A stretch of DNA of 64,000 bases, taken from an uncultured Eubacteriales bacterium. GTDB lineage: Bacteria; Acidobacteriota; Aminicenantia; Aminicenantales; Aminicenantaceae. Of this stretch, positions 20,433-54,886 are shown piece after piece. The stretch covers positions 938 through 64,937 of the forward strand of contig CAYPGQ010000014.1 of assembly GCA_964410125.1 (NCBI GenBank), given 5' to 3'. Positions within the stretch are counted from its first letter, which is position 1, and every line of letters begins with the position of its first letter. Under the pieces are notes generated by a model, which was given only the letters and a program-made list of their open reading frames with translations, had not been told where the DNA came from and searched no databases. The position numbers and the translations under genes are program-made.

Positions 20433-21111
20433 TTAGCTTTTCTCCTTTTTTGATCCATGAATCATCTCATTAAAGTCTTTCAGCCGGTAACTTTGCCCAT
20501 CGATATTTAAGATATGGGCGGTAGAGCTCGCAAAACTGGTTCGAAAAATGGGGGTCATATCCCAAAAGCTTGGATCCTCTTCCTTATACTCTGTCCAAAG
20601 GAGCTGGCGGGTCACCCCTTTTTTCCTCAGCTCTTGGTGGACGAGCGCCCAATCCGGAGTCCTCTTGCCAGCCTCCTTCAAAACCGATGGAAAAAGACGC
20701 TTTTCCAACTCCTCATCCCCGAGTCCTTCAGGAAGAGGCCAACCGATTCCAGCCTCCGACGCTCTGCACAAATACTCCCGTACCGTCTCCTTCCCGACGG
20801 AACAGGCTCTGGCAATGGCCCGGATGGATAGACCACCCGAGTGTTTCAATCTGAGTACTTCTCGAATTTTTCGCATGGATAACCTCTTTCTGGCCATCTT
20901 TTCCTCCTCTTTTTTTTGGAAGGTACATGATGGCCTATTCGTTTTAAGTTATCCAGCACCGCTTCACTTGATATCGATTCCGGAGTCCGGAAAAAAGTGG
21001 CCGGAATCAACCGGAACAGGTGGCCGGATTGCTCCGGAATCAGTGGCCGTAATGAATCGGAATGGGTGGCCGTAATGAATCGGAATGGGTGGCCGCTTTC
21101 GACCGGAATAT
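20433..21111 (-). mobile_element. IS21-family remnant: istA N-terminus fused in frame to istB C-terminus, plus terminal 23-bp periodic repeats
   Basis: In the 154-aa ORF (20433..20897), the IstA-type HTH region runs into an IstB-type tail (AHILNIDGQSYRLKD). Upstream lie five GTGGCCG-cored repeats. Confidence 0.65.
20997..21111. repeat. Five direct repeats with exact 23-bp period (GTGGCCG core at 20997, 21020, 21043, 21066, 21089)
   Basis: I read these directly from the sequence. The two central units are identical (gtggccgtaatgaatcggaatgg). They are typical multi-site IS21 termini. Confidence 0.8.
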
Positions 21112-21284
21112 GCAACGATATATCTTGAGAAAGTTTCAGCACAATCAAAGAGCCCACTGAAGTCGTTAAGTACTAGTTCAGCCTTGGAATCAATATAAAA
21201 AGGCAAATTTAAACTTCTATTTTTGTTCATCTGAAATACTCCTGAGATATGAATTAGAAAAAGTCATATGTAAAATAGGTATCA

Positions 21285-24182
21285 CTAACTATTAAATATT
21301 ATTCGATATTTCGCAACACGATTATCTATTGCTGGTTTGGTTCCCTCAAGAACGTCAACAATTTTTTTACATATATTAGGATTTTCTAAAGCTCCAGATA
21401 TATAGTCTAAATTGTAGTTTCCTTCTTTATCAAGTGATGCATAGATCACTTGTTCAGCATCACAAACTACTGCAAGGTTTGGGTTATGAGTAACTATAAT
21501 AATTTGACGTTTCTTTTTTGCTTCTTTGATACAATCAACTAATAGTTGATATACAGTTTGATTATCCAGATTCCCTTCAGGTTGATCAATAATTAAAGGA
21601 AGCATACTGTTATCAATTAATAAATAAAATATCAAGAGCAGTGTACCTCTTTCCCCAGGTGATAACTGCTCCAGAGGCTTGCCTTCCCATCGTAATACAT
21701 ATCTTGGTTCTAAATAATCCAATCCATAAATAAACAGATATAAATCACCAGGTGAAAAGGTTTGACGAACTTGATCTTTGATGAGTACAGGCGGATTTTC
21801 ATCATAACGATAATCATGATGAAGGTATTCGATCACTTTATTAATAAATTCTTCTACTCCTAAATCTTCATCTAAATTTGCTGCTGCAACTAAATGATTT
21901 ATTGTTTGTTTCCCTTCTGATTCACCATGAAAAGAACCTCGTCGCTGTTGATTTATAAATTCTAAAAATCTATCACTGAACTTACGTGGGACCAATGAGA
22001 CACGAAATTCTAATCCAAAGCGTTCTTTTGCTAAAGGATGTTTATCTATGAATTCTTGAATAGGAGCGTAAAGTTCTTCATATACCCTTAGTAATGTTTT
22101 TTTTACTTGAAAGATTCTTTTCGCACATTCTTGCTGTTTCTTTTTAGCTGTTGATAGTTTTTCTGGAATTCTTTCTATCTCGTCTTGAAGCGCTTTGTAA
22201 TGTTCTAATGTTTTTGGAGTATTTACGTTGCCAATCAAATTTTTTAATTGTTCTTCCCATTTTGCTTTTATTGCTAAATATCTTTGGTATTCTTTATTTG
22301 GACGATCAAGCTTTTCCCGCAATATATCAATCTTGTTTTTTATTTTTTTTCTTTGGAAAATTAAACTCTGATCGTTATCTTCATCTTTTAGTTGTATATC
22401 GAGATTATCTTTTTTCGCATGTAAATTTTTTTCAATCTTTTTTAGCTTAGATAGATCAATATTTACTTGGATTAAATCATTTTTTGAGATTCCTAATTTC
22501 TCACAATCAGTAGAAATTTCTTCGAAAAGATTATCAACCTGCAATTTAAAGTTTCCAATTTTTCTGTATATTTTTTCAATCAGACGAATACTCAAGACAT
22601 CCCTGTTTAGTTCATCCTGTTTTTTCTTAATATCTTTATCTACATCAACAATTTGAGATGCATATTCTTCAATTTTGTTTGAAATATCATCGATTTCTTT
22701 TTTCCTTTTTGGATCTGTTTCTGGTTTTTTTACCTCAACTGGCATTATGCTTTTATGAGCATCAATCTCTTTTTCTATATCCCTAAGTTCTGATTTAAGC
22801 GAGTCAATATAAATATCTGTAGATTTTTCCTCAAGTTTTACCACCTCAAGTGTTTCCCTTCTTAAATCTTCAATTATTTGTCGAATTTTTGCTTGTGATT
22901 CTGTTGTCCGGAATTCGACAAGTTCATCAAGCGAAGCTTTTCCGAGTCGTTCTTCTGTCGGTATACGTGAAAATATTACCTGCTTTAGTTCCTCATGAAA
23001 TCTTCCCTCTTGTCCTCCCTTTAGCTCATCACAAATATCCTCTAAATAGAATTGAGGAATGTATCGTACAGATTCGGTTAAAGTCGAATCGAAACGATCA
23101 TCAAGATTTCTCCTTATTGTTTCACCACTTTTCCAAGTAAGTTCAGCATCAAAGTGGGAGGATTTGTTTGCTCTAGGATGTCGAAATTGATCTTCATGTA
23201 GGAATGAAAAAGATTCTTCATGTGGGCAATTCCCCATTAATCCAATAACATCAGAGAGTGCGCTTTTTCCATTTCCTTTATTTCCAATGATAGATATTAG
23301 CCCAAAATTGAATTCTAATGAAACTCCATCAAACCAATCTTCTCCAAGAGATGAAGAGCTTCTCTTTTTTATTTTTAAAGAATCAATGTATTTAGTTTTA
23401 TTTTTTTCAACATGATCAAGAATCTGAGGTCGTTCACCAAGAAAAACTCTCTCGATAGGCTCATTAACAACTTGTCTCAGACCATAAAACGTCGCGTCTG
23501 CTTTCAACCAACAAGGTAACGATACTCCATAATCATTAACATTGTGGTTATCAGATCCAATAATTATAGGAAGGTTTAATCCCGTTGCTGGGAAGACAAT
23601 TTTTATGTACCTCTCAATGTCTTTCAACTGTCCTATCTCAAGAAAATCAATAAACATTTTTGTTATATCGAACTTAATCCTCTGTTGAAATTGTTCTCTA
23701 TTCTCAATTCCCTCAACTGAATTAGATTTTCCTCCAGCATGAATTGAAATTAGCCCTCCTAATCCAGATATTATCTTGTGTGCATCTGAAATGGGAACAT
23801 AAACACTTTCATTCCCTCCTCTTGCTTTAATACCTTCAGGAGTTAGTTTCAAGGCGCCTTTAAGTGTATCCCATATATGATCTAAATCCATTGATTCAGA
23901 GAATAATCCAATATAGTGAATTGGCTTATCTCCAAGTTCAGAACGAAGTTCAATTCCAGGAATTACACAAAATTTCCCTTTGCTTAATTTTCGTATATTT
24001 TTAATTCTTTTAACATCTATAAAATGATGATCTGTGATTCCCACAACTTTGACACCTGCATCAATCAGTACATCTGTAATTTGTTCATCTGACACAGTAT
24101 CATTTTCATAATCGAAAGATGAAGGAGTGTGAAAATGTAAATCCCATTTTCGCCATATTGATCCTAGTGAAAATTCTTCCAT
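21285..24182 (-). CDS. PHP-domain + ABC/SMC-like ATPase with long coiled coil (Ppl/PplA-like)
   Basis: N-terminal PHP motifs are DLHFHTPSS, GITDHH and GSDNHN. It has Walker A GNKGNGKS and a coiled coil of about 350 aa that is K/E-rich. The C-terminus carries LSPGERG, Walker B LIIDQPEGNLD and VTHNPN. Confidence 0.65.
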   Translation of the reverse strand: MEEFSLGSIWRKWDLHFHTPSSFDYENDTVSDEQITDVLIDAGVKVVGITDHHFIDVKRIKNIRKLSKGKFCVIPGIELRSELGDKPIHYIGLFSESMDLDHIWDTLKGALKLTPEGIKARGGNESVYVPISDAHKIISGLGGLISIHAGGKSNSVEGIENREQFQQRIKFDITKMFIDFLEIGQLKDIERYIKIVFPATGLNLPIIIGSDNHNVNDYGVSLPCWLKADATFYGLRQVVNEPIERVFLGERPQILDHVEKNKTKYIDSLKIKKRSSSSLGEDWFDGVSLEFNFGLISIIGNKGNGKSALSDVIGLMGNCPHEESFSFLHEDQFRHPRANKSSHFDAELTWKSGETIRRNLDDRFDSTLTESVRYIPQFYLEDICDELKGGQEGRFHEELKQVIFSRIPTEERLGKASLDELVEFRTTESQAKIRQIIEDLRRETLEVVKLEEKSTDIYIDSLKSELRDIEKEIDAHKSIMPVEVKKPETDPKRKKEIDDISNKIEEYASQIVDVDKDIKKKQDELNRDVLSIRLIEKIYRKIGNFKLQVDNLFEEISTDCEKLGISKNDLIQVNIDLSKLKKIEKNLHAKKDNLDIQLKDEDNDQSLIFQRKKIKNKIDILREKLDRPNKEYQRYLAIKAKWEEQLKNLIGNVNTPKTLEHYKALQDEIERIPEKLSTAKKKQQECAKRIFQVKKTLLRVYEELYAPIQEFIDKHPLAKERFGLEFRVSLVPRKFSDRFLEFINQQRRGSFHGESEGKQTINHLVAAANLDEDLGVEEFINKVIEYLHHDYRYDENPPVLIKDQVRQTFSPGDLYLFIYGLDYLEPRYVLRWEGKPLEQLSPGERGTLLLIFYLLIDNSMLPLIIDQPEGNLDNQTVYQLLVDCIKEAKKKRQIIIVTHNPNLAVVCDAEQVIYASLDKEGNYNLDYISGALENPNICKKIVDVLEGTKPAIDNRVAKYRIIFNS

Positions 24183-24221
24183 TTTGTACTCCTCAATTCA
24201 ATGTTCAAGAATTTTTTTTTA

Positions 24222-24416
24222 TTACTTAGATTTATAAAATAAATTGTGCTGATCGTTAAAAAGGTAAAATCTGATGGGCTTAGTTTGTATTCCAACATCA
24301 CACTCCTCCCCTTTCTTTTTGCTTTTAAGCTCATTGGAGTTATATGAATTATGTAATTTTCCAATTGTATAATCTTGAGAGGCTGACCACGAGAATTCGT
24401 TTTTAAACTCTTTCAT
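24222..24416 (-). CDS. Possible small ORF (64 aa) between two large genes
   Basis: This is an ORF only. There is no SD and no recognisable motif. Confidence 0.15.
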   Translation of the reverse strand: MKEFKNEFSWSASQDYTIGKLHNSYNSNELKSKKKGEECDVGIQTKPIRFYLFNDQHNLFYKSK

Positions 24417-24464
24417 TTCAACTACTTATATAATATTGAAAAAGTAGCCCCCCTCCCCTATTCA

Positions 24465-26315
24465 TTATCTCGTCAGCACTTTGACAATTCTATCCTCATT
24501 CAGGAGTCCATTTCTCATAAGAAGTCGAACTGGAAATTCTTTGATTGTAGAATTTTTGAATCCTTCTAGAATTTTCATCAATCCTCTCGAGGTAAGCAGG
24601 GAAAGATTCAGCTCATAATCGTATTCACACGCTGCGATGAAGTCGTCCGAGAACTCATTTGCCACAATTATTGCTTTTGTCACATGAAAATTTTTATTCT
24701 CACAAAGATTCACATAGGATTTCAGTTGTCTCGATACGGAGGTGTATTGGTTATATTCTTTATCCTTTTTTGTTTTGCATTCGACCAACATGAGATCTTG
24801 ATTTCCAAGATTGATTAATACATCAATTTTATGGCGATTAGTATTGAGGCTATTTTTCAATTTGTTGTCTGTATTGAATCCAAGTCTATTGAATATCTTT
24901 TGTGTGACTTTTTCATACAACAGCCCCAATTCGATCTCTTTGACAAACAGCCCCTTATCATGCAACGTTTTTAAGTCTCTTCGTCCGATCGCATCGAAAT
25001 TTTCGATATAAAGATCATCGATGTCCCTATAGTTTTCGATGATATTTTTAATCAAATTTCCTCTGGATTTAATGTTGTGACCTTTACAAAATTTTAGAAG
25101 TTCATCCCGGATAAAAAGATAGAGAATGTCTCTAGGCTTGATGTTATATTTGTTCAGCAATTCAGAAGACATCACGTTTTCATCTTGAAGCTCGAATTCT
25201 TCTTTTATTTTGTTGTTGATAATTGGGAAGGTGCCTGCCAGATCTTTTAAAAGGCTGTTAAAGCCATCACGGGAAAGGCTAATCGTGTCTTCTTTTTCAA
25301 GGTCATTGAAGTATTTAATCAAATTCGCGACTTTTTCTTCTAGAGAACGTCCGAACTTTTCAATATCGACTTCAAGCCCTTTCTCCATGAGTGCCTGAAG
25401 TCTTTTAGACTTTTCGGTTTTGGATGTTCCTGGCCGGAATATAATTTCTGTAAGCAAATTTGTCGCATTAACTCCTTGATTTAAGATCTCCTGAATCTTC
25501 CTTTTCCTGCTCCATTTTCTATTGATATTATGTTTTTTCGTTATGAGGTTGATCTCAGGATCGCTTAGGTTTTTCAGAATCCGCCTTAAAAATTTATTGG
25601 GAAGCTCTATTCCAGCTATTTCTCTTAATAACCAAATAAACTCATCAGGAACGTATAAAGTGTTTGTTTTTCTATTGAAAAAGATGATTCCGGATTCTTT
25701 CAATTCATTCAACAAATCATCAACCTTAAATTTTTCTAAAGGGATTACAGTATGGGAAATCCACCTGACCTCTTCGTTGGATAATTCTAGATTTTTTTCC
25801 AGAGTTTGAAGAATGGATTTTTCTTCCCAGGATAGCTGTTTTTCCATATTTCGGATGAGATCGTTTTCATAAGCAGTCTGCACACAGTTTTTATAAATTC
25901 GGTAATCTCTTTTTCGGTTTTCCTCTAAATCTCCGTCCCCAATATCTAGAAGGCGCTTGAAATATTTAATGTTTGCTTCTAGTTTTGTATGCTCATTGTT
26001 ATAGAGTTTTAGGAACCATTCCCTTGTCATCATCGAGTTTCCGTCCCTTATCAGAATATCCACAAGAATGTCGAGTTGGTAATCACTGAATTTTATTCTT
26101 TCTTGAAGATGTTTTTTATATTGGGGCGTAAGAAGTTCGAAGAGTTGAACAATGTTTTCATCATCCACATTTTTCAGCTGTCCATCCCCTTTAGATAATA
26201 TTTTATCGATTTTGGGCTTTGATTTTCTTAGGTCACAACAAAAGCTGTCAAGAATTTTTAAAAATGCGCTCTTCTCGATCTGATTGACCGTGTCAAGAAC
26301 ATCGATAAGTCTCAT
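24465..26315 (-). CDS. Protein with SAP/HeH-like repeats and C-terminal Mrr-type PD-(D/E)xK nuclease domain
   Basis: The C-terminus reads HKIDVLINLGNQDLMLVECKTKK (D...ExK), then QLKSY and IIVANEFSDDF. It has its own TTGACA-17-TAATAA promoter (26349..26377) and an AAGGAGG SD. Confidence 0.55.
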   Translation of the reverse strand: MRLIDVLDTVNQIEKSAFLKILDSFCCDLRKSKPKIDKILSKGDGQLKNVDDENIVQLFELLTPQYKKHLQERIKFSDYQLDILVDILIRDGNSMMTREWFLKLYNNEHTKLEANIKYFKRLLDIGDGDLEENRKRDYRIYKNCVQTAYENDLIRNMEKQLSWEEKSILQTLEKNLELSNEEVRWISHTVIPLEKFKVDDLLNELKESGIIFFNRKTNTLYVPDEFIWLLREIAGIELPNKFLRRILKNLSDPEINLITKKHNINRKWSRKRKIQEILNQGVNATNLLTEIIFRPGTSKTEKSKRLQALMEKGLEVDIEKFGRSLEEKVANLIKYFNDLEKEDTISLSRDGFNSLLKDLAGTFPIINNKIKEEFELQDENVMSSELLNKYNIKPRDILYLFIRDELLKFCKGHNIKSRGNLIKNIIENYRDIDDLYIENFDAIGRRDLKTLHDKGLFVKEIELGLLYEKVTQKIFNRLGFNTDNKLKNSLNTNRHKIDVLINLGNQDLMLVECKTKKDKEYNQYTSVSRQLKSYVNLCENKNFHVTKAIIVANEFSDDFIAACEYDYELNLSLLTSRGLMKILEGFKNSTIKEFPVRLLMRNGLLNEDRIVKVLTR

Positions 26316-26596
26316 ATTATCCTCCTTATGCTGACATCAACGTAAATATTATTAGTCGGATAATTTGCAAATGTCAAATTTTACTGAAACAACCTCCCTT
26401 AAAAAAACAAGGCCACATCTTAGGTATTACGCAATTTATAATTTATGTAAATCACCGTTTAAGGTGATTTTGAGGGGGATATTGCATAAATAAAGATATC
26501 TAAGGACCGAAGGCCGTGTCATACCGTTTCTTCGGCAATACATGGGGATAATCTCCTGAGCGAAGTGCAATGTTTTTTCCTATGCGAAGCCCATAT

Positions 26597-29035
26597 TTAA
26601 ATTATTGCTTGGATTTTAATAAACTGCTGGAATTTTTCTATACACTTTTCAATATTGTTTTCTTTTATTTTTTCTACTTCTCTGCACCATTTTATTGCCT
26701 TTTTTTCAAGAGAGAGGTTTTCAATTTCCATCCACCAATTGGGCAATATCACATGTCTTCTCATTTCTAAGGAGTTTTCAACCTTTCCAATATTTGACAC
26801 ATGAATTTGACCTCTTTGAATTCCTTCGAAACTAGAGGCAAAAAATTCGAGGCTCCGAAAACCGTTTAAAGGCAATAAATCATGAAATAGTTGGAGCATG
26901 GGTTTTTGAATTTTGCTAATAGGGCCCCATTTCGAGTTGAGAAGAGAGGTCATTAAATAGACCTGTTCTGTTTTTAGCTTGTCTTCTTGATATCCTTCAA
27001 AAGTTTTATATTCTTTTATGCTGTAAACTTTATTTTTATAAGCATCTCTATCCATATTAATATTTACATTAATTATTTTCTTGACTGCTTTTATTGCATA
27101 ATCCCAGTGGCTGGCTTCGGTCAAATCAAGTTCAATAATCGGACCATTAAGACGAGATACAAAATCAGAACCTTTAGTGATTTTTTTACTTTTATCATCA
27201 GAGGACAGTTCATCCATTCGGCTGGTTGATGCAAAAATCCATACTCCAGGGGTCAAACGGTATGTTTTGCCGTCTTTCATAAATTTTCCATCCCACATAG
27301 GGCTGAGCAGCAGCCCAATAGCACTGTGCCCCTCAATTTCAGCATTAATTTCATCTATGAAAATCAATGTCCTTTTCTGAGTTCTGGCTTGAATCGAGGC
27401 AATAGTTGCTAAACATTCAATGAGGTCTTGATTTTCTGACATTTGTGCAATGGAGAATTCAAGGAATTCCATATCAAAATGATCTGCGAGACATTTTGCT
27501 AAATAGCTTTTCCCCCAACCTGGAGGTGAACTTAAAAGGCAGCTCAAGGAATGTCTAAGTGTTTTTTTGTTATTGAATTTTGCTATTTCAGAAACAAGAT
27601 GATTTATCGCATCACGCTTTGGTCCCCCTACACAAATGTATTTGGCCAGTGTCCCCTCACCCCGCCACAATTGCAAAACCTCTGAGATCGTTCCATTATC
27701 AGACATTAGTTGGATAGCTCCTATGTTTTCAGCCGAGGAATTCCAATCATCCCAGAGTTTTTCGTATTCTTCAATTTCGACTTTCTTATCGGAATGAGTA
27801 GTAATATTTAGTGCTTCTAAAGCTTCAGAATAGTCACCATAAAGATAAAGCTCTTCCTGATTCCATTTCTTGCTGGCTTTTTCACTCCAGTAATGAGCAG
27901 CAAGAAGAGCTTTGTAGCATTCGTCACCGAAATTATTGATAATTTTCCCTCTTTCTTGAGAAAAATCTGCATATAATCTCTGGGCAATAAGAGATCCATA
28001 AAATATTGTAGTTCTTCCTAAATTAATGAGCTGTTTCTCTCCCGGAGGTTGATGAATGCTGTAACACATATTTCTATCTTTAGCGAACACTGTGTTTTTA
28101 TCTAGAAGCACCGCAGCTCTCATGGAATTAATTCCTGATTTATCCCTTTTTGAGCCATGTTTATACGTTGTATCGCAAGTGAGTTCACCTAGAAGCTCCA
28201 AAGCTGCATGACTGAGGTGCTTCCCATGCCACCATCTTCTTTCTCCTTTTTTGTGTTCAGCAAATTTAAAATCTACAACAATCATATCAATTGCCCTTTT
28301 ATTCTGATTTAAAACTTCCAACCAGCCAGGATTATCAATTTTAGTACGCACATACCATTTGATAGCCGGTCTATTTCTGAAGATGCTCAGCAATTTTTTT
28401 ATGGTTTCTTCATTTATCACTCCAGCAGCATGATCTTCAATTACCAATGCAACTACATTAATATCGCTAGATTTGAGTTCTGTCTCTAGCATTTTAAGAT
28501 TTATATTCATAGAGGCGTCCAATACCCAGTCAAAGCGGTAAAGTTGATGTGGTTTTGCGCCTCCATATCCCTCGAAACATCGGATGATTCTATTTGTTGA
28601 TGTATTTGAATCAAGAGAGAGATTTCTCAACTTTACATCATAGGTGCAATTCTTTTTAGAATAGGGACACTTATCTTTTATTACCGGTCTTAGGCTGGTA
28701 AGAGTATACGGAGATAGTAGTTTTTTATCCGTATGATGTGGGCAAAGCGTGCATTTAATTAAATCATCATCAACAGGATTCCAGACGCCATATCCAAGAA
28801 ATTCAAATTGAGTTCCTTCGTTTTTTTTAAAATAAGATCTGAGTATTTCTATGAGTGTAGCTGCACCACATAGATTTGTAATTTTTTGATCCACACTGCT
28901 GTGTCTTGATAGATAATGGATTTCTCCTGGAGAGGAGCTGTGATATAAATCTTGTCTTGTGACAAGCCAATTTTCATCAATAAACCAATCCCCTATTACA
29001 ACCACCGTATCAACTTTTTTATTTTTTTTAGGCAT
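26597..29035 (-). CDS. HldE/PfkB-like (degenerate) domain fused to a classical AAA+ ATPase
   Basis: The N-terminus has VVVIGDWFIDENW, NLCGAATL and VIEDHAAGV, which resemble ribokinase-fold kinases, but the GAGD site is replaced by NLGRTT. The AAA+ part has Walker A PPGWGKSYLAK, Walker B LIFIDEINAE and sensor-1 VWIFASTS. The start is placed at the ATG behind a GAGGGG SD. Confidence 0.5.
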   Translation of the reverse strand: MPKKNKKVDTVVVIGDWFIDENWLVTRQDLYHSSSPGEIHYLSRHSSVDQKITNLCGAATLIEILRSYFKKNEGTQFEFLGYGVWNPVDDDLIKCTLCPHHTDKKLLSPYTLTSLRPVIKDKCPYSKKNCTYDVKLRNLSLDSNTSTNRIIRCFEGYGGAKPHQLYRFDWVLDASMNINLKMLETELKSSDINVVALVIEDHAAGVINEETIKKLLSIFRNRPAIKWYVRTKIDNPGWLEVLNQNKRAIDMIVVDFKFAEHKKGERRWWHGKHLSHAALELLGELTCDTTYKHGSKRDKSGINSMRAAVLLDKNTVFAKDRNMCYSIHQPPGEKQLINLGRTTIFYGSLIAQRLYADFSQERGKIINNFGDECYKALLAAHYWSEKASKKWNQEELYLYGDYSEALEALNITTHSDKKVEIEEYEKLWDDWNSSAENIGAIQLMSDNGTISEVLQLWRGEGTLAKYICVGGPKRDAINHLVSEIAKFNNKKTLRHSLSCLLSSPPGWGKSYLAKCLADHFDMEFLEFSIAQMSENQDLIECLATIASIQARTQKRTLIFIDEINAEIEGHSAIGLLLSPMWDGKFMKDGKTYRLTPGVWIFASTSRMDELSSDDKSKKITKGSDFVSRLNGPIIELDLTEASHWDYAIKAVKKIINVNINMDRDAYKNKVYSIKEYKTFEGYQEDKLKTEQVYLMTSLLNSKWGPISKIQKPMLQLFHDLLPLNGFRSLEFFASSFEGIQRGQIHVSNIGKVENSLEMRRHVILPNWWMEIENLSLEKKAIKWCREVEKIKENNIEKCIEKFQQFIKIQAII

Positions 29036-29260
29036 GTCCCTTTCCCCTCTTGAATAATTTTTCAAAATGAGAGCCTTTTGCTGTATAGCTACTCATCACT
29101 CTTTTTTTGATCGGAAATTATGTCTTTTGCCCTTAAACAGAAACGTCTAATTGGACATTTTTCCCCCTAAAACCGAAAAAATTCAAAGGGTTTAAATTTC
29201 GTCTGTCAGCTTTTGAATATGGTTGGATAAACGGTCTATGTCAAGCAATCCCAGTGAAAT

Positions 29261-31868: not shown

Positions 31869-32118
31869 TGGCTAGTGAAGTAATTTCACTAGGGATGATT
31901 CTAATAATAAAATAGTGCAGCGTGTTCCATTTGTCAATAACAAAAAATATGGATTAGTCTTTGTTATCATCATGTCTGGCTATTTATAAGAACGAAAAAG
32001 TTGAAGAAAAATTCTCATTTACATTTATTCTGACATTCAACAAAATCCTTATTTCCCTTTTTTTAATCAGCCTTGACAGAATCAATCCAAATAATTAGCT
32101 TAATTCCCCTAGAGATAT

Positions 32119-32223
32119 AAAAAAAGCGACTGGGTGTAAGGCCAGTTTCGGCCTTTCGATAAGACGCTTGGCGACTCGTCCCAGACGCATAATAATAATA
32201 GTGAAATGATTTCGAAAAGTCAA
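32119..32223 (-). ncRNA. Candidate small RNA gene, copy 1 (own promoter + about 70-nt structured transcript + U-tract)
   Basis: TTGACT (32218..32223), a 17-nt spacer and TATTAT (32195..32200) precede a conserved structured segment that ends in U7 (32119..32125). Confidence 0.5.
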
Positions 32224-32282
32224 TAAATATCTAAATTTTATGTGCATACAGAACTTTATGAAGGTCGATTATGACATCTGCG

Positions 32283-33446
32283 TCAGGTAGTACGAAAAGC
32301 AACAGAATAGTCCTCGTTTTCGTCATAACCGTACCTTTTTAAGAACGAAGGAATTGCGCTGTAATTCTCACCAACATATTCGGCAAGTTTTCCTTTGGAT
32401 ATTTTCTCAAGAAAAAAAGCTTTAATCGCCAACAAAATGTATTTAGTAGAAAGATATGGTTTTTCTATTTCTGCCCAATCCGTGTTCCGTTGTTTTTTGT
32501 CAATGTCTCTGATGATCCCCTTCTCGAGTTCTTCTTGAATGCCCTCTTTCCTCAGAAGGTCAAGGTTAACCAATCGCCATAGTAAAGCTTCGATCGAAAC
32601 ATCGAAATCTCGAGCAATATCGACCAAATTCAGATATGAAATCGAGTCCTTACCGGTCTTTTTCTCAAACGCATCTCGAACCTCTTTCTCTGGTATAAGT
32701 AAAGATGCTGCAAAGACGTCAGCTAATTGTTCAACGCGGCTTTTTCCTTTTGTATTGTCTTGGTATATCTCTTCAGGATCGAAATCTTCCCAGGTTATTA
32801 AGTGAAAGAATTCGTGCGTGAGGTCGAAATTGCGTCTCCAGGGTGCATCATTAGCGTTAATCAGGACAGCCATTCCAAAATCCTCATCTATTGTCGAGCC
32901 TCCAGAAATGTCATCATCCATCGGAAGAAAAATAATCTTGATACCCATTTCTTCCTCTAAGATTTTTGACAACGAACATGCCGGACGCAATCCCAAATTC
33001 AGAATGCTAGCGTATTTAAAGGCGAGGTTTTCGACACATTTGAAAGCATCCTGGGTAAGCAATTCATGTTTATCAATATTGATTTTTGATCCTGTTTTTG
33101 AAACATCAGGCTCACCGAGAAGTTTTAGGAGATTTTGGTAACGCTCACATATCGAAATGAATTGCCGTTCGATAATTGTTTTTTGAGGGCTTGTTTCTGG
33201 CCTTCTCCAGAGGATCCTGACTTCTTTCTGAGGAACGTCAAGATTCAGGAAATACTCAATGTCACGGCCATAGATTTTAGCTAATTTAGCAAGTTCCCAG
33301 GCTTTTACCTCCCTCTCCCCTGCCTCAATGCTGCTTAATGTCTGGTAATTGTTGAATCCTAATTTTTCTGATACTTCCTTTAGAGTAAAATCCAGAGACT
33401 CCCTTTCTCGCTTAAGAAGATTTGCCAGTTTCTTTTGGATATTCAT
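32283..33446 (-). CDS. XRE-family HTH fused to ImmA/IrrE-type zinc metallopeptidase (copy 1)
   Basis: The HTH is LKEVSEKLGFNNYQTLSSIEAGERE and the HEXXH motif is HEFFH. The start is set at MNIQKK (ATG 33446); the upstream part of the ORF is promoter DNA. Confidence 0.8.
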   Translation of the reverse strand: MNIQKKLANLLKRERESLDFTLKEVSEKLGFNNYQTLSSIEAGEREVKAWELAKLAKIYGRDIEYFLNLDVPQKEVRILWRRPETSPQKTIIERQFISICERYQNLLKLLGEPDVSKTGSKINIDKHELLTQDAFKCVENLAFKYASILNLGLRPACSLSKILEEEMGIKIIFLPMDDDISGGSTIDEDFGMAVLINANDAPWRRNFDLTHEFFHLITWEDFDPEEIYQDNTKGKSRVEQLADVFAASLLIPEKEVRDAFEKKTGKDSISYLNLVDIARDFDVSIEALLWRLVNLDLLRKEGIQEELEKGIIRDIDKKQRNTDWAEIEKPYLSTKYILLAIKAFFLEKISKGKLAEYVGENYSAIPSFLKRYGYDENEDYSVAFRTT

Positions 33447-33587: not shown

Positions 33588-34145
33588 TTATTGAAAGTTC
33601 CGAATCCGCGCTTTTTTGCGCAGTTTATACAGTGCTTTTCTTATTTCTGTTTCTGATTTTCCCTCGATTTGGACTATTTTATCTGATCCTTCAAGTGCGC
33701 CAATTATTCCTCCAAGAATGGCTCCGGAAAGGCCGATATAAAAACCATAACCCAATGCTTTGTCCTTCGCTGTCATTATGGATAGGTCCATCCAAACACG
33801 ATGTCCCCACCACGTCCCATAACCAGGAGGATCGTCTCCTTCCACATAACCAATTAATGATCCAATAACGGCTCCACTTATTAATCCAATCCCTCCCCAA
33901 GCCAGACTTTTTGATTTCTTCACAATTTCAATAAGCTTAATCTCCCTGATATCAACAGATACATCGGCTCCTGATTCAGAATCCAGCAATAACAGAGAAT
34001 TCTCCTTTACAGCAATAAGCTCACCTATTGCATACTGCCCGTCTATTTTCTGGACTATGAGCTCTGATCCATTTTTCTTGGCATATAGATTTTCTGAAAA
34101 TGCAAATAAAGATAAAACCAAAAACAAAACTATGCATTTTTTCAT
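33588..34145 (-). CDS. Secreted glycine-zipper protein (copy 1)
   Basis: It has a signal peptide and GxxxG-rich stretches (GGIGLISGAVIGSLIG, GLSGAILGGIIGALEG), and a basic C-terminus. Confidence 0.55.
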   Translation of the reverse strand: MKKCIVLFLVLSLFAFSENLYAKKNGSELIVQKIDGQYAIGELIAVKENSLLLLDSESGADVSVDIREIKLIEIVKKSKSLAWGGIGLISGAVIGSLIGYVEGDDPPGYGTWWGHRVWMDLSIMTAKDKALGYGFYIGLSGAILGGIIGALEGSDKIVQIEGKSETEIRKALYKLRKKARIRNFQ

Positions 34146-34325: not shown

Positions 34326-35112
34326 CTAAATCTTTATAGAACTAATCCCCTTCCCGGTCTCATATGTGAACAGCTCTATTCCATTGAACTGACCTTCGCT
34401 TCCCTCTTTGAGCCAACCTCCGGTATTGAACATCGACACATTTGAGCTTTGGTCCTTGAAAGGCTGAATAACCAGCCGTTTTGAATCCTTTATTCCAATC
34501 GGTCTATGAGAATGGCCGAAAATGATCATTTTTGGATTGACTGGGATGTTCAGGCTGTTTTCCTTATTCAGGCTTTCAATCTCAGCATTGCTGGATTTGT
34601 AGTAATTGATCATTTTTCGATGGGTGTCAGGTTTATACTCCCAATTTTCATCTTGCCTGGGAGAAGAATCAGGCCTTTTTTCTATGCACTTTTTAAGCTT
34701 GCATTTGGCCCAACATATTAGTATTTTTATGGGCCAGTGCAATGGATTGTACCAATTGAATTTGAATGTCTCTTTTCCGAGAGCCTTTTCCAGATTATTG
34801 ACGTATCCCATTATTTTTTTTGACTTGTTGGCTTTAAATTCATATTGAATGTCTCTAATAACATCGGATAAGGGGCCTGCCTGACCGACTCCGGAGCTTG
34901 AAAGCTGAGCTAATGGAAAATTCAAATATGGCTACATCAATCACATCGCCGAGCATGACCAGGTAGTCGTTATTTGTGCCGCAAGCTTCTACGAATTCAT
35001 GGTATTTTGGTCCAAGAATTGGATTGCCGTTAGAATCGAGCGCGGCCAATTGGCTGGTGCAATCTCCGAAATGAGTGTCTGAAGTGATGACAATTTTCAT
35101 TGGCCCCTCCAC
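34326..35112 (-). pseudogene. Metallophosphoesterase split into two overlapping ORFs (copy 2)
   Basis: It has the same motifs as copy 1. The N- and C-terminal frames are offset by +1 near 34930. It retains the 104 nt that copy 1 lacks. Confidence 0.6.
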
Positions 35113-35296
35113 TATGGATATTCAGAAAAAAGAGGGATTTGATATGGCTTCAGGATTGGAGAGATGATTGCTTAATTTGCCCCTCTAATACTGCTTATCA
35201 TTTAGATAGATAAGTCTTTGATGTGAAAATGTCAAGGAAAAATTCGGATAAGGCAGGGAGTTCGAATTTTAGAGTGATAGAGGGGTCGCAAAGTTT

Positions 35297-35518
35297 TTAT
35301 GATTCAAATTCACTCCGAGACAACCCCGACTGCCGTATGATAGATTGCAAAGTTCCAATTCTGATTTCATCATGGTTTGGAATAGGCACTGTTATTGTCC
35401 CATGAAGAAGCTTCTTTTGCACTACAATATGGCTGCCGCGCCTTCGGATTTCCTTGAAACCATGTTTTGCCAGAATGGAACATACTTCTTTGCCAGATAG
35501 AACTCGCAGTTTACCCAA
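35297..35518 (-). CDS. hicA: HicA-family mRNA interferase toxin
   Basis: The sequence is LSGKEVCSILAKHGFKEIRRRGSHIVV. It overlaps the upstream hicB. Confidence 0.8.
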   Translation of the reverse strand: MGKLRVLSGKEVCSILAKHGFKEIRRRGSHIVVQKKLLHGTITVPIPNHDEIRIGTLQSIIRQSGLSRSEFES

Positions 35519-35782: not shown

Positions 35783-35975
35783 TGAAGCAGGTCGATTATG
35801 ACGTCAGCATCAAGTCGTGCGATATTCAACAGAATAGTCCTCGTTTTCGTCGTATCCATACTTATTTAAGAACGAAGGAATTGCGCTGTAATTCTCATAA
35901 ACATATTCGGCGAGCTTGCCTTTGGATATTTTTCCGAGCCTCTCCCCTGCCCTCATATTCAAGAAGCTTGACACT
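35783..35975 (-). pseudogene. Internally deleted XRE-ImmA remnant (3' end joined to an HTH fragment)
   Basis: There is nucleotide similarity to 32250..32420 (the gene 3' end), followed by cctctcccctgcc, which matches the AGERE codons of the HTH. Confidence 0.5.
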
Positions 35976-40592: not shown

Positions 40593-40625
40593 TCAATTAA
40601 AAAAATTAATTTAATACCCCCTGGC

Positions 40626-40732
40626 AAAAAAAAAGCGACTGGGTGTAAGGCCATTTTCAGCCTTTCGATAAGACGCTTAGCGACTCGTCCCAGACGCATA
40701 TTAATAATAATGATTTGATTTCTAAAAGTCAA
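40626..40732 (-). ncRNA. Candidate small RNA gene, copy 2
   Basis: TTGACT (40727..40732), a 17-nt spacer and TATTAT (40704..40709) precede the conserved structured segment, which ends in U9. Confidence 0.5.
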
Positions 40733-40790
40733 TAAATATCTGAATTTTAGAAAATCAATAACTTGAAAAAGAAAAATTCGGGGATTATCT

Positions 40791-41924
40791 TCAAGTCGTG
40801 CGGTAAGCAAAAGAATAGTCCTCGTTTTCATCGTATCCGTACTTATTTAAGAACGAAGGAATTTCACTGTAATTCTCACCAACATATTCGGCAAGTTTGC
40901 CTTTGGATATTTTCCCAAGATAAAACGCTTTAATAGCCAATGAGATATATTTAGCAGAAAGATAGGGTTTTTCGTCTATATCCCTGATAGTGTCTTTTTC
41001 TAGTTCCTCTTGAATGTCCTCTTTCCTCAGAAGGTTCAGGTTAACCAATCGCCAGAGTAAAGCTTCGATCGAAACCTCGAAGTCTCGAGCGATATCGACT
41101 AAATTCAGATATGAAATTGAATTATTGTCTGTCCTTTTCTCAAATTCTTCTCGAACTTCCTTTTCCGGTATAAGCAAAGAGGCGGCAAAGACGTTTGCTA
41201 ATTGTTCAACGCGGCTTTTCCCTCCCATACTATTTTCTTGGTAGATCTCTTCATGTGAGAAATCTTCCCAGGTTATTAAGTGGAAAAATTCGTGGGCAAG
41301 ATCGAAATTTCGCCGCCATGGAGCATCATTGGAGTTGACTAGAACGGCCATTCCGAACTCCTTATCTATTGTCGAGCCTCCAGAAATATCAGAATCCATC
41401 GGAAGGAAAATAATCTTGATCCCCATTTCTTCCTCTAAGATTTTTGACAATGAACATGCCGGACGCAACCCCAAATTCAGAATGCTAACATATTTAAAGG
41501 CGAGGTTTTCGACACATTTGAAAGCGTCCTGGCTGAGCAATTCGTGTTTATCGATATTGATTTTGGATCCAGTTTTTGGAACATTGTTCTCGTTGAGAAT
41601 TTTTAAAAGATTTTGATAGTTTTCACATATCGAAATGAATTGTCGCTCTACAATCGCTTTTTTTGGGCTTGTTTCAGGACTCCTCCAGAGGATCCTGATT
41701 TCTTTCTGAGGCAAGTCAAGATTTAGGAAATAGTCTATGTCACGGCCGTAGATTTTAGCCAGTTTAGCGAGTTCCCAGGCTTTTACCTCCCTCTCCCCTG
41801 CTTCGATGCTGCTTAATGTCTGGTAATTGTTGAATCCTAATTTTTCTGACACTTCCTTTAGAGTGAAATCCAGAGATTCCCGTTCGTCCTTAAGAAGTTT
41901 TGCCAATTTCTTTTGGATATTCAT
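40791..41924 (-). CDS. XRE-family HTH fused to ImmA/IrrE-type metallopeptidase (copy 2)
   Basis: It has the same architecture as copy 1, with the HEFFH motif. The start is at MNIQKK (ATG 41924). Confidence 0.8.
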   Translation of the reverse strand: MNIQKKLAKLLKDERESLDFTLKEVSEKLGFNNYQTLSSIEAGEREVKAWELAKLAKIYGRDIDYFLNLDLPQKEIRILWRSPETSPKKAIVERQFISICENYQNLLKILNENNVPKTGSKINIDKHELLSQDAFKCVENLAFKYVSILNLGLRPACSLSKILEEEMGIKIIFLPMDSDISGGSTIDKEFGMAVLVNSNDAPWRRNFDLAHEFFHLITWEDFSHEEIYQENSMGGKSRVEQLANVFAASLLIPEKEVREEFEKRTDNNSISYLNLVDIARDFEVSIEALLWRLVNLNLLRKEDIQEELEKDTIRDIDEKPYLSAKYISLAIKAFYLGKISKGKLAEYVGENYSEIPSFLNKYGYDENEDYSFAYRTT

Positions 41925-42065: not shown

Positions 42066-42623
42066 TTATTGAAAGTTCCGAACCCGCGCTTTTTTGCGCA
42101 GTTTATTCAGTGCTTTTCTTATTTCGGTTTCTGATTTTTCCTCGAATTGGATTATTTTATCCTTTCCTGCAATTGCGCCTCCAATACCTCCAAGGACACC
42201 TCCTGTAATGCCACACATAAAACCTAATATGAATGCTTTTTCATAAGCTGTAAACATGCCAGGCATCGGACTTGAGAGTCCAAATGCCATTAGTGGGCCG
42301 CCTGGAGGATCATCTCCCTGTAAATATCCAATTAATGCTCCACTAACGACTCCACTTAATAATCCATAGCCAATTCCTTTCCAGACCTTCGATTCCTTCA
42401 CAATTTCAATAAGTTTAATCTCCCTAATATCAACAGAAACATCCGCTCCTGATTCAGAATCCAGCAATAACAGAGAATTCTTCTTTACAGCAATAAGCTC
42501 ACCTATTGCTTGCTGACCGTCTATTTGCTGGACTATGAGCTCTGCTCCCTTTTTCTTGGCATATGAATTTTCTGAAAATGCAAATAAAGATAAAACCAAA
42601 AACAAAACCATGAATTTTTTCAT
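42066..42623 (-). CDS. Secreted glycine-zipper protein (copy 2)
   Basis: It is a paralog of 33588..34145. The termini are conserved and the central glycine-zipper region is divergent. Confidence 0.55.
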   Translation of the reverse strand: MKKFMVLFLVLSLFAFSENSYAKKKGAELIVQQIDGQQAIGELIAVKKNSLLLLDSESGADVSVDIREIKLIEIVKESKVWKGIGYGLLSGVVSGALIGYLQGDDPPGGPLMAFGLSSPMPGMFTAYEKAFILGFMCGITGGVLGGIGGAIAGKDKIIQFEEKSETEIRKALNKLRKKARVRNFQ

Positions 42624-42876: not shown

Positions 42877-43047
42877 ATGATGAAATATAAGATAATCATG
42901 GAACCTAGTGCAGACGGAGGATATTCAGTCACTGTTCCTTCTTTACCTGGGTGTATCAGTGAAGGCAATTCAAAGAAAGAGGCACTTAAGAATATCAAAG
43001 AAGCCATCCTTTTATACCTGGAGCCGGTAGCAGATGATTTGAATTGA
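42877..43047 (+). CDS. Orphan HicB-like (UPF0150) antitoxin
   Basis: The sequence is MMKYKIIMEPSADGGYSVTVPSLPGCISEGNSKKEAL, with a GAGGAGGG SD. There is no adjacent hicA. Confidence 0.6.
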   Translation: MMKYKIIMEPSADGGYSVTVPSLPGCISEGNSKKEALKNIKEAILLYLEPVADDLN

Positions 43048-43106: not shown

Positions 43107-43211
43107 AAAAAAAGCGACTGGGTCCAAGGCCATTTTCGGCCTTTCGATAAGACGCTTAGCGACTCGTCCCAGACGCGTATTAATAATCGTGAAGTGAACA
43201 CAGAAAGTCAA
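43107..43211 (-). ncRNA. Candidate small RNA gene, copy 3
   Basis: TTGACT (43206..43211), a 17-nt spacer and GATTAT (43183..43188) precede the conserved structured segment, which ends in U7. Confidence 0.45.
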
Positions 43212-43675: not shown

Positions 43676-44047
43676 TCAGCATGGATGATGTGCAGAGGAT
43701 TCCGACGCGATATTCACCGTGAAGGCGTTTCTTTCCATGATATTGTCATGCGTATAGGTGGCTTTCCTCAGACATGTCATGAGAGAGGCAGCTTTGGAAC
43801 AGCATATTCCTACCCACGATGAAGTCATCACATTGGGCTTCCCCTTCTCATCATAGGACCCGATCACCCACACCAGAGTGGGAATGATTACGGTTCTTGC
43901 ACCGAGAGACGCTTTTTCACTACCCTCAATCCCCCCAGATTTTGCCAGATATGAAGTTCCCATCTCTTTTAATGGAAAACCATCTTGCCATGTTCCTGCT
44001 ACAAACAACAGGGACAAAATCCCGATCAAAACAAAATGACGGATCAT
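43676..44047 (-). pseudogene. Flavin reductase-like protein, C-terminally truncated
   Basis: The sequence PTLVWVIGSYDEKGKPNVMTSSWVGICCSK...LRKATYTHDNIMERNAFTVNI matches the FMN-binding split barrel. Homology stops at the island edge. Confidence 0.5.
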
Positions 44048-54722: not shown

Positions 54723-54797
54723 ATGATGAAATTAAAAATAATTATAGAACCCAGTGCAGATGAGGGGTATTCAGTCATTGTCCCTTCTTTACCTGGG
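54723..54797 (+). pseudogene. hicB-like 5' fragment fused to small-RNA element
   Basis: It matches 42877..42955 up to CCTGGGTGTA, then continues as the repeat element. Confidence 0.55.
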
Positions 54798-54886
54798 TGT
54801 AAGGCCATTTTTGGCCTTTCGATAAGACGCTTAGCGACTCGTCCCAAACGCATATTAATAATAGTGATTTGATTTCTAAATTTCAA
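54795..54886 (-). ncRNA. Candidate small RNA gene, copy 4 (3'-truncated, no terminator)
   Basis: TTGAAA (54881..54886), a 17-nt spacer and TATTAT (54858..54863) precede a conserved segment that breaks at the CTGGGTGTA junction. Confidence 0.35.

What the first reader, a model, noticed from the sequence alone, without database searches (positions are those of the whole stretch)
32119..32223. Four-copy candidate small RNA gene with its own promoter and terminator (also 40626-40732, 43107-43211, truncated 54795-54886)
All copies are on the minus strand. Each has TTGACT (TTGAAA in copy 4), exactly 17 nt, then TATTAT/GATTAT. The 17-nt spacer differs between copies while the hexamers and spacing are preserved, which argues for a functional promoter rather than mere repeat conservation. 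About 7 nt downstream begins GCGUCUGGGACGAGUCGCYAAGCGUCUUAUCGAAAGGCYRAAAMUGGCCUU(ACA/GGA)CCCAGUCGC, followed by U7-U9. It can fold as a closing stem GCGUCUGGG/CCCAGUCGC (one U-U mismatch) around two hairpins, GACG-N10-CGUC and AAGGCC-N6-GGCCUU. Differences between copies fall in loops or the junction, or are G-U compatible. Copies 1 and 2 lie directly downstream of the XRE-ImmA genes; copy 3 lies next to TA remnants. I do not recognise the motif.
Basis: seen in the sequence. Interest (0 to 1): 0.7.

Follow-up and report, generated by a model that had tools for sequence, protein, structure and literature searches.

The report
Orphan small RNA gene beside hicBA
A roughly 70-base stretch with its own promoter and terminator occurs four times in this window and looks like a real, undescribed small RNA gene; it belongs next to a hicB-hicA toxin-antitoxin cassette (only remnants survive here) rather than to the XRE-ImmA genes, and its function is still unproven.

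Summary
There are four minus-strand copies, three complete and one truncated. Each has a -35/-10 pair spaced exactly 17 nt apart, a 63-nt core that folds as a three-way junction, and a run of 7-9 U. Chance predicts 0 copies.

The small RNA reading is partly supported. In related contigs the spacer sequence is replaced entirely, yet the hexamers, the 17-nt spacing and the 6-nt gap to the first G are kept. The promoter and RNA stay 88-95% identical where the adjoining non-coding DNA has fallen to about 60%. However, all known copies are at least 84% alike. No base pair shows a compensatory change and several changes break pairs, so the fold is unproven. I had no expression data.

The conserved DNA after the terminator is the 3' end of a convergent hicA gene. 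hicB-hicA is intact in contigs L002 and L032 and reduced to remnants in the window. Close ImmA (RmrA-like) and HicA homologues often lack the RNA.

There is no match in Rfam, plasmids, phages or IMG/VR. The element is known only from about a dozen metagenomic loci, apparently Aminicenantes-like.

Best guess: a convergent antisense or antitoxin-like RNA of the hicBA cassette that persists after the toxin genes were deleted. Mechanism confidence is low.

The parts
32195..32223 (-). Copy 1 promoter, TTGACT-17-TATTAT
32119..32188 (-). Copy 1 RNA: 63-nt three-way-junction core (32126-32188) followed by U7
   Evidence: (100.5 bits)
32255..32302 (-). First 16 codons (LLFVLPDADVIIDLHK) of the PIN-like 171-aa partner gene that normally overlaps the end of the ImmA/RmrA-like gene. 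The partner gene is truncated just upstream of the RNA module.
   Evidence: tblastn with the L010 partner protein; intact partner genes seen
32283..33446 (-). HTH_3 + Peptidase_M78 gene, 387 aa, RmrA-like. Lies upstream of copy 1.
32065..32118 (+). Degenerate remnant of the 3' end of a convergent hicA gene next to copy 1. Recognisable only at nucleotide level.
40704..40732 (-). Copy 2 promoter, TTGACT-17-TATTAT
40715..40758 (-). Inverted repeat (GATTTTCTAAAA ... TTTTAGAAATC) that brackets the -35 box of copy 2. Possible operator or hairpin.
40626..40697 (-). Copy 2 RNA core followed by U9
   Evidence: 101 bits
40585..40614 (+). hicA C-terminal remnant (TVDQLKKLI*), convergent with copy 2
40791..41924 (-). 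Second HTH_3 + Peptidase_M78 (RmrA-like) gene, 84% identical to the first. Lies upstream of copy 2.
43183..43211 (-). Copy 3 promoter, TTGACT-17-GATTAT
43107..43176 (-). Copy 3 RNA core followed by U7 (junction GGA instead of ACA)
   Evidence: 99.5 bits
43044..43091 (+). Last 15 codons of hicA (LKQTDITIDQFKKLI*). The rest of the toxin gene is deleted.
42877..43047 (+). Intact short hicB antitoxin gene (56 aa, HicB_lk_antitox), convergent with copy 3
54858..54886 (-). Copy 4 promoter, TTGAAA-17-TATTAT
54793..54851 (-). Copy 4 RNA, truncated after CCCAG. The end of the 3' strand of P1 and the terminator are missing.
   Evidence: (71 bits)
54723..54800 (+). First 26 codons of hicB, fused to the truncated RNA through a 9-nt microhomology (CTGGGTGTA). 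This is the scar of a deletion that removed the RNA 3' end, hicA and most of hicB.

Best explanation
The element is a stand-alone gene for a small RNA of about 70 nt. It forms the outer, 3' boundary of a hicB-hicA type II toxin-antitoxin cassette.

A sigma-70-type promoter starts transcription at or next to G1. The RNA folds as a three-way junction. Its closing stem followed by U7-9 acts as an intrinsic terminator about 12 nt short of the stop codon of the convergent hicA gene.

No terminator was found for hicBA itself, so hicBA transcripts probably run on through the RNA gene in antisense. That would make the small RNA fully complementary to the hicBA 3' UTR, whether it comes from the same locus or from any other copy. 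I infer that it acts as an RNA-level brake on the toxin operon, through duplex formation, RNase III-type cleavage or transcriptional collision. That would be a second, RNA antitoxin layer.

In this window both flanking toxin genes have been deleted: hicA on one side and the PIN-like partner of the RmrA-like ImmA gene on the other. This leaves three intact orphan RNA genes and one dead copy.

Shown: the repeat, the conserved promoter geometry, the terminator, the convergent hicBA context, and conservation above that of the flanks. Inferred: transcription, antisense overlap, and any effect on hicA.
For: - Repeat: four copies against 0 expected by chance.
- Promoter: hexamers, 17-nt spacing and the 6-nt gap to G1 are kept across five unrelated spacer sequences.
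- Fold: the three-way junction with a U-tract is predicted for 7 of 8 variants, with P1 pair probability 0.83-0.99. The sense strand is 3-6 kcal/mol more stable than the antisense strand in 6 of 8.
- Context: intact hicB-hicA converges on the RNA in L002/L024 and L032/L033, with about 12 nt between the hicA stop and the U-run. hicA or hicB remnants sit at the same position at c1-c4, L018 and L023.
- Termination of hicBA: no terminator-like site was found between hicA and the RNA gene in L002.
- Conservation, c1 vs c2: RNA 95% and promoter 88%, against adjoining non-coding DNA at 60-62%.
- Conservation, L002 vs L032: RNA 89% against hicBA coding DNA at 81-82%.
- Precedent: a convergent antisense RNA controls a type II toxin in relBE2-asRelE2 (PMC9325379).
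Against: - I had no expression data.
- No pair covaries, and several changes break pairs (L018 G59U, L023 G1U and U51C, L032 G37A, L002 U50C).
- The RNA ends before the hicA ORF, so any antisense action depends on unproven read-through of hicBA transcripts.
- The terminator scan used cannot see branched stems, so 'no hicBA terminator' is weak evidence.
- Close HicA homologues (84-89% and another at 81%) lack the RNA, so hicBA does not need it.
- The RNA stays intact where hicA is gone, which a purely cis-antisense role does not explain.
- The 5' 36 nt are almost invariant, which points to sequence-specific recognition rather than simple antisense pairing. Part of this invariance is ascertainment, because my DNA patterns lay in that half.
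Confidence: 0.35

Rival explanations
1. It is a trans-acting RNA that binds a protein, and sequence-specific recognition matters more than antisense pairing. Examples would be a decoy or inhibitor of the HicA RNase (type III-like antitoxin logic), or a partner of the neighbouring RmrA-like or DUF3800 proteins. [quoted passage not shown]
For: - The first 36 nt are invariant except for one Y in all ten distinct copies. This includes L032, which was found through the protein rather than the RNA pattern, while its 3' half differs at 6-7 of 27 positions.
- The RNA is kept intact after hicA is lost.
- It neighbours different genes in either orientation: ImmA upstream in 7 of 12 loci, and a DUF3800-like gene directly downstream in L003 and L021.
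- Weinberg et al. 2017 describe conserved, terminator-ended RNAs of unknown function linked to DUF3800 genes in either orientation, with a frequent UAA. Here the P2 loop is YAA.
Against: - No match to any Rfam model, including the DUF3800, drum and skipping-rope families, even at E up to 10.
- DUF3800 adjoins only 2 of 12 loci, and no DUF3800 gene was found in the window.
- There is no evidence of any RNA-protein contact.
- The invariance of the 5' half is partly an ascertainment effect.
Confidence: 0.25
2. It is a cis-regulatory leader or attenuator. The promoter, structured RNA and terminator control read-through into whatever lies downstream on the same strand: the DUF3800 gene in L003/L021, the DUF5128 beta-propeller gene after copy 2, or antisense transcription into hicA.
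For: - The order promoter, structure, terminator, Shine-Dalgarno-like AGGGG, ATG is seen in L003 and L021.
- A DUF5128 ORF starts about 50 nt after the copy 2 terminator.
- The three-way-junction architecture with P1 doubling as the terminator resembles compact OFF switches (inference).
Against: - In the intact loci L002 and L032 no gene follows on the same strand; only the convergent hicA does.
- Downstream genes are unrelated from locus to locus.
- The junction J3/1 varies (ACA, GGA, ACG, ACC), which fits poorly with a ligand pocket.
- No alternative antiterminator structure is evident.
Confidence: 0.1
3. It acts at the DNA or transcription level only. It would be a terminator or insulator between two convergent toxin operons (ImmA-PIN and hicBA), or a protein-binding site (GCGTCT occurs twice, 21 bp apart). 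The apparent promoter would be incidental in AT-rich DNA, and no functional small RNA would exist.
For: - It sits exactly between convergent operons or their remnants.
- The A-run, stem and U-run layout is that of a shared terminator.
- There is no covariation.
- An inverted repeat brackets the -35 box in most copies.
Against: - The promoter hexamers and spacing survive complete replacement of the spacer in three lineages. An incidental promoter would not do this.
- On the hicA-sense strand the stem is not followed by a U-tract.
- A plain terminator does not need an invariant 36-nt sequence or a branched structure.
Confidence: 0.15
4. It is a functionless hitch-hiking repeat, a remnant copied along with decaying TA cassettes and homogenised by gene conversion.
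For: - All copies lie in a junkyard of truncated genes.
- Copy 4 and L023 are clearly decayed.
- The element has a narrow distribution.
Against: - Flanks decayed to about 60% while the RNA stayed at 95%.
- Promoter spacers differ between c1, c2 and c3, so conversion has not homogenised the unit.
- The same RNA sequence is kept in separate metagenomes with different flanking genes.
Confidence: 0.1

Closest known systems
asRelE2 of the relBE2 locus in Mycobacterium tuberculosis ('type IIb' toxin-antitoxin; PMC9325379)
   Same: A small RNA with its own promoter, convergent to a type II toxin-antitoxin operon, proposed as an extra RNA-level control of the toxin.
   Different: asRelE2 overlaps the relE2 coding sequence, and its RNase III-dependent action was shown experimentally. 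Here the RNA stops about 12 nt before hicA, is a compact three-way junction with its own terminator, survives without the toxin, and has no experimental support.
3'-overlapping type I antitoxin RNAs of Bacillus subtilis (RatA/txpA, SR4/bsrG); from my own knowledge
   Same: Convergent arrangement in which the 3' ends of toxin mRNA and antitoxin RNA meet.
   Different: Type I toxins are small hydrophobic peptides, and the two RNAs overlap by about 100 nt or more. Here the toxin is a HicA RNase with a protein antitoxin (HicB), and overlap is only inferred.
DUF3800-I, drum, skipping-rope and the DUF3800-II to -XI RNA motifs (Weinberg et al. 2017, PMC5737381)
   Same: Highly conserved structured RNAs that end in an intrinsic terminator, are rarely in 5' UTRs, associate with particular neighbouring genes in either orientation, and have no known function. 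Two loci here (L003, L021) have a DUF3800-like gene directly downstream.
   Different: No sequence or structure match to any of these Rfam models. DUF3800 is absent from most loci. The recurrent neighbour here is hicBA.
Type III antitoxin RNAs (ToxI and relatives); from my own knowledge
   Same: A structured RNA that could neutralise an endoribonuclease toxin.
   Different: ToxI-type RNAs are tandem repeats upstream of the toxin gene on the same strand, and the toxin processes them. Here the RNA is a single unit, convergent with the toxin gene, with its own promoter.

Membership tests
Any Rfam 15 family | Score at or above the family gathering threshold | tested here: not met
   0 hits in the whole window at gathering thresholds. 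The best hit at E up to 10 on copy 2 was 23S-methyl at 22 bits against a threshold of 50; the rest were noise.
DUF3800-associated RNA motifs (I-XI), drum, skipping-rope | Match to the family covariance model | tested here: not met
   None of these families appears even at E up to 10.
DUF3800-associated RNA motifs (I-XI), drum, skipping-rope | Consistent adjacency to a DUF3800 gene | tested here: not met
   A DUF3800-like gene (MYLCYIDESGTP...) lies directly downstream only in L003 and L021. I named it from the sequence motif, not from a Pfam scan. tblastn finds none in the window.
Cis-antisense RNA of a toxin-antitoxin locus (type I, or type IIb such as asRelE2) | RNA gene convergent with, and next to, a toxin gene | tested here: met
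   Intact hicB-hicA converges on the RNA in L002/L024 and L032/L033. Remnants occupy the same position at c1-c4, L018 and L023.
Cis-antisense RNA of a toxin-antitoxin locus (type I, or type IIb such as asRelE2) | Transcripts of RNA and toxin overlap and pair | not testable with these tools
   The small RNA terminator lies about 12 nt outside the hicA ORF. Overlap needs read-through of the hicBA mRNA, and only a simple scan shows no hicBA terminator.
Cis-antisense RNA of a toxin-antitoxin locus (type I, or type IIb such as asRelE2) | RNA always accompanies the toxin family | tested here: not met
   HicA homologues at 84-89% (L025-L031) and one at 81% (L046-L050) have no RNA.
Type III toxin-antitoxin RNA (ToxI-like) | Tandem RNA repeats upstream of the toxin gene on the same strand | tested here: not met
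   A single unit, convergent with hicA.
Riboswitch or transcription attenuator | Lies in the 5' UTR of a gene on the same strand in most representatives | tested here: not met
   True only for L003/L021 and possibly copy 2. The intact loci have a convergent gene instead.
Structured RNA supported by covariation | Compensatory base-pair changes | tested here: inconclusive
   0 of 20 pairs change on both sides, and the observed score equals the shuffled score. The copies are 84-100% identical, so power is very low.
Integron attC site | R''/R' core sites (RYYYAAC ... GTTRRRY) and an integron integrase nearby | tested here: not met
   There is no AAC/GTT core at the ends of the element. No recombinase turned up among the 43 larger ORFs scanned with Pfam or PADLOC; 5 of the 44 ORFs of 150 aa or more were not scanned. 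The defining features are recalled from my own knowledge.
MITE or REP-type dispersed repeat | Terminal inverted repeats, target-site duplications, insertion in unrelated contexts | tested here: not met
   The element always lies between the same two gene types in the same orientation. The conserved flank is a gene remnant, not a duplication.
Small protein gene | Conserved start codon and reading frame | tested here: not met
   The ATG at the 5' end becomes ACG (c3), GTG (L001, L032) or ATT (L023). 1-nt deletions in L002 and L018 shift the frame.
RosmerTA (the neighbouring HTH-M78 gene as RmrA) | Full-length match to RmrA models | tested here: met
   PADLOC RmrA, E 2.3e-27, residues 9-337 against profile positions 13-332 of 380. 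The 171-aa partner matches no PADLOC model, so the system as a whole is not established.

The most novel reading that the evidence does not exclude
The RNA is a new class of structured RNA antitoxin or decoy. Through its invariant 36-nt 5' half it is recognised by an RNase toxin (HicA, or the PIN-like partner of the RmrA-like protein) and neutralises it. It is then kept as an orphan 'anti-addiction' immunity gene after the toxin genes are purged. That would explain three intact copies sitting between deleted toxins in one defence island.
Probability: 0.12. Interest if true: 0.75.

Novelty: new variant of a known kind. Interest (0 to 1): 0.45.

Why it matters
If it is transcribed and active, this would be an RNA layer on a HicAB module, a family thought to be controlled by protein alone. 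It would be only the second example of a 'type IIb' arrangement. It would also be unusual in two ways: the RNA is a compact, self-terminated three-way junction outside the toxin ORF, and it outlives the toxin.

It would add an RNA family in an uncultured lineage (Aminicenantes-like) for which I know of no described small RNAs.

It also gives a clean natural experiment: orphan copies, intact copies and decayed copies for functional tests.

If it proves to be only a terminator with an incidental promoter, it is of local interest only.

Tried and rejected
1. Rfam at gathering and permissive thresholds gave nothing. tRNA/tmRNA scan gave nothing.
2. Small peptide: rejected, because the start codon is not conserved and indels shift the frame.
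3. Obligate partner of XRE-ImmA: rejected, because five ImmA homologues from 87 to 63% identity lack the RNA.
4. Obligate partner of hicBA: rejected, because close HicA homologues lack it.
5. Covariation: 0 compensatory pairs; the copies are too similar to test this.
6. More distant homologues. A covariance model run over about 328 kb of related loci found only near-identical copies. Exact-pattern scans gave 4 genome loci, 8 metagenome loci, and only chance hits or none in IMG/VR. BLASTN against plasmids and phages gave no match.
7. Trans target in hicBA mRNA or elsewhere in the window: nothing beyond chance. The 9-nt match to hicB (CTGGGTGTA) is not conserved in L002 and explains the copy 4 deletion instead.
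8. Integron attC, MITE, hammerhead-type ribozyme: the defining sequence features are absent (reading).
9. [quoted passage not shown]

Full report
**1. Observation**

The four copies exist as described. A 32-nt core pattern with up to three mismatches hits only 32151-32182, 40660-40691, 43139-43170 and 54814-54845, all on the minus strand. Shuffled sequence gives 0.00 hits.

Each copy has a -35/-10 pair spaced exactly 17 nt apart, with 6 nt between the -10 hexamer and G1 of GCGUCUGGG:
- TTGACT/TATTAT at copies 1 and 2
- TTGACT/GATTAT at copy 3
- TTGAAA/TATTAT at copy 4

The 63-nt core folds as a three-way junction. Its closing stem is followed by U7, U9 and U7 in copies 1-3. Copy 4 ends at CCCAG. 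Folding z-scores are modest, -1.2 to -3.2. Rfam, tRNA and tmRNA scans are negative.

**2. Where else it occurs**

Exact-pattern scans found 4 loci among 185,579 species genomes. All are MAGs titled 'uncultured Eubacteriales'. They also found 8 metagenome contigs, three of which are the window's own copies. IMG/VR gave only chance hits to a 17-mer, or none. Plasmids and phages gave nothing.

Homologues of the neighbouring protein are labelled Candidatus Aminicenantes or Acidobacteriota. The source is probably that lineage, but I did not resolve the taxonomy.

After dereplication there are about 12 distinct loci and 10 distinct RNA sequences (alignment A2).

**3. What the flanks really are**

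About 45 nt after the terminator are also conserved between copies. Translating the opposite strand shows that this is the C-terminal end of a convergent hicA gene.

In L002/L024 and L032/L033 the cassette is intact. hicB (68-73 aa, HicB_lk_antitox) and hicA (75 aa, HicA_toxin) run toward the RNA gene. About 12 nt separate the hicA stop from the RNA's U-run.

In the window only remnants remain:
- Copy 3 keeps an intact 56-aa hicB (42877-43047) and the last 15 codons of hicA.
- Copy 2 keeps 9 codons of hicA.
- Copy 1 keeps a degenerate trace.
- Copy 4 is a deletion scar. The 9-nt string CTGGGTGTA occurs both in hicB and in the antisense of the RNA. The sequence between the two was lost, fusing the RNA, cut at CCCAG, to codon 26 of hicB.

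On the promoter side, 7 of 12 loci carry a 387-aa HTH_3 + Peptidase_M78 gene or its 3' end. This gene matches RmrA of RosmerTA over its full length (E 2e-27). In most relatives a 170/171-aa PIN-like gene overlaps its stop codon. After the window's first ImmA gene, only 16 codons of that partner survive (32302..32255).

So the RNA module sits between two convergent toxin-type operons, and the toxin genes of both have been deleted here.

The window as a whole is a TA and defence island next to parA-parB. It holds an AriA-like ATPase, a Ppl-like protein, MazF, BrnA, a second distant HicA and many gene fragments.

**4. Is the association obligatory?**

No.
- ImmA homologues at 87% (L034-36), 83% (L041-44), 80% (L009, L045), 72% (L010) and 63% (L011-16) have no RNA.
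- HicA homologues at 84-89% (L025-31) and one at 81% (L046-50) have none. Another at 81% (L032) has it.

The RNA is therefore a patchy, separable module. Its most frequent neighbour is hicBA or a hicBA remnant, in 8 of 10 loci where the terminator side can be read.

**5. Evidence that it is a functional transcription unit**

(a) Promoter geometry. The c2-type, c3, L002, L018 and L032 copies have unrelated 17-nt spacers and unrelated upstream DNA. All keep TTG in the -35 hexamer, A2 and T6 in the -10 hexamer, the 17-nt spacing, and the 6-nt gap to G1.

(b) Differential conservation.
- Between paralogous loci c1 and c2, the ImmA 3' end is 88% identical, the next 60 nt 60%, the promoter 88%, the RNA 95%, and the DNA after the terminator 61-62%.
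- Between L002 and L032, which both have intact hicBA, the RNA is 89% identical and hicBA coding DNA 81-82%.

(c) Decayed copies behave as expected. L023 has lost both the -35 box and the U-run. L032 has a weakened U-run. Copy 4 is truncated.

(d) The sense strand folds 3-6 kcal/mol better than the antisense strand in 6 of 8 variants. The one informative transition within a stem (c2, C39U) gives a G-U pair on this strand.

**6. Evidence that is missing or negative**

There is no covariation. 0 of 20 pairs change on both sides, and the score equals that of shuffles. Two changes are G-U compatible and about five break pairs. The copies are too similar for this to count strongly either way.

The first 36 nt are invariant apart from one Y, and almost all variation lies in the 3' half. 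Part of this is ascertainment, because my search patterns lay in the 5' half. However, L032 was found through HicA and shows the same asymmetry. The 10 positions left free in the metagenome pattern varied at only one site.

I found no trans target. I had no expression data.

**7. Mechanism**

The best-supported reading is a small RNA gene attached to the 3' end of hicBA.

A simple scan finds no terminator between hicA and the RNA gene on the hicA-sense strand in L002, and reading of the hicA-sense strand shows no U-tract after the stem. hicBA transcripts would therefore run antisense through the RNA gene and could pair with the small RNA. This resembles 3'-overlapping type I systems and the relBE2-asRelE2 'type IIb' locus (PMC9325379). 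This step is inference.

The RNA survives after toxin loss and its 5' half is invariant. These two points fit a protein-recognised, trans-acting RNA at least as well. Such an RNA would resemble in style the unexplained terminator-ended motifs linked to DUF3800 genes (PMC5737381). Two loci here do have a DUF3800-like gene directly after the terminator. A leader or attenuator role, a pure terminator or insulator role, and neutral hitch-hiking are less likely, for the reasons given under the rival explanations.

**8. Comparison and novelty**

The element belongs to no Rfam family. It is not a type I or type III antitoxin by their defining features, and it is not an attC site, MITE, peptide gene or known ribozyme.

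It works most like a convergent TA-associated antisense RNA. It differs in being a compact branched RNA that terminates outside the toxin ORF and persists as an orphan. I rate it a new variant of a known kind.

Confidence that it is a real transcription unit under selection is about 0.7. Confidence in the specific mechanism is about 0.35.

**9. Verdict**

The interpretation as an independent small RNA gene is partly supported. The genomic association is corrected from XRE-ImmA to the hicBA 3' flank.

Interest is moderate (0.45). The candidate is well bounded and apparently under selection, and it has an intriguing position between purged toxins. It is narrowly distributed, has no covariation and has no expression evidence.

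Noticed in passing
window 40715-40758 (copy 2); also copy 4, L001, L003, L004, L018, L021, and weakly L002: An inverted repeat brackets the -35 box of the RNA promoter. Its arms differ between loci but stay complementary: GATTT(T)CTAAAA/TTTTAGAAATC in c2, GATT(C)TATAAAA/TTTTATAAATC in L004, TCAATAAAA/TTTTATTGA in L018. It could be an operator or a hairpin. It is absent from copies 1 and 3 and from L032.
   Followed up: partly
window 54793-54801: The truncation of copy 4 is explained by a deletion between two copies of the 9-nt string CTGGGTGTA, one in hicB and one in the antisense of the RNA. The deletion removed the RNA 3' end, hicA and two thirds of hicB.
   Followed up: yes
window 32255-32302 and 35788-35829 (minus strand): Two short remnants (LLFVLPDADVIIDLHK and LNIARLDADVIIDL) of the PIN-like 171-aa gene that normally overlaps the stop codon of the RmrA-like HTH-M78 gene. 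The toxin-like partner has been deleted at least twice in this island.
   Followed up: partly
window 15983-29065: parA-parB (15983-17693) is followed directly by a low-GC (31-36%) defence island. It holds an AriA/PtuA-like ATPase (17949-19241) with an unassigned 303-aa partner, a Ppl-like 965-aa SMC-type protein (21285-24182), and unassigned 616-aa and 822-aa (AAA) proteins. In related contigs (L011-16, L025-26) parAB also adjoins the HTH-M78 or hicBA genes, so this looks like a conserved hot spot.
   Followed up: partly
window 33588-34145 and 42066-42623 (minus strand): A 185-aa protein with a signal peptide and glycine-zipper segments, 70% identical between its two copies, precedes each RmrA-like gene. 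It has no Pfam or PADLOC family. It might be the toxin partner (RmrT-like) of these Rosmer-like genes.
   Followed up: no
window 34855-35518 (minus strand): A second, distant HicA homologue (35303-35518, 32% identical to the L002 HicA) with an adjacent 85-aa ORF. There is no RNA element next to it.
   Followed up: no
window 43676-44047, 53089-53616, 54148-54534: Fragments of housekeeping-type genes (flavin reductase, gamma-glutamyltranspeptidase, class-V aminotransferase) lie next to the RNA copies. This indicates extensive gene decay and rearrangement around them.
   Followed up: no
L001 (pos 1), L022 (pos 1), L019 (pos 2038): Three independent metagenome or MAG contigs end inside or right at the RNA element. 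This is what assemblers do at multi-copy repeats, so other genomes probably also carry several copies.
   Followed up: no
8-12 nt after the U-run in all copies except copy 3 (e.g. window 40612-40625): A conserved AGGGG(G/A) motif lies between the RNA terminator and the hicA stop codon. In L003 and L021 it serves as the ribosome-binding site of a DUF3800-like gene. Its role in the other loci is unknown.
   Followed up: no
L021 1-560; L025 2729-2878: The last 53 codons of the ImmA gene travel with the RNA module in L021, behind a different 399-aa gene. In L025 a shorter ImmA C-terminal remnant lies between that 399-aa gene and hicA, with no RNA. This suggests that a deletion of about 300 nt removed the RNA module there.
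   Followed up: partly
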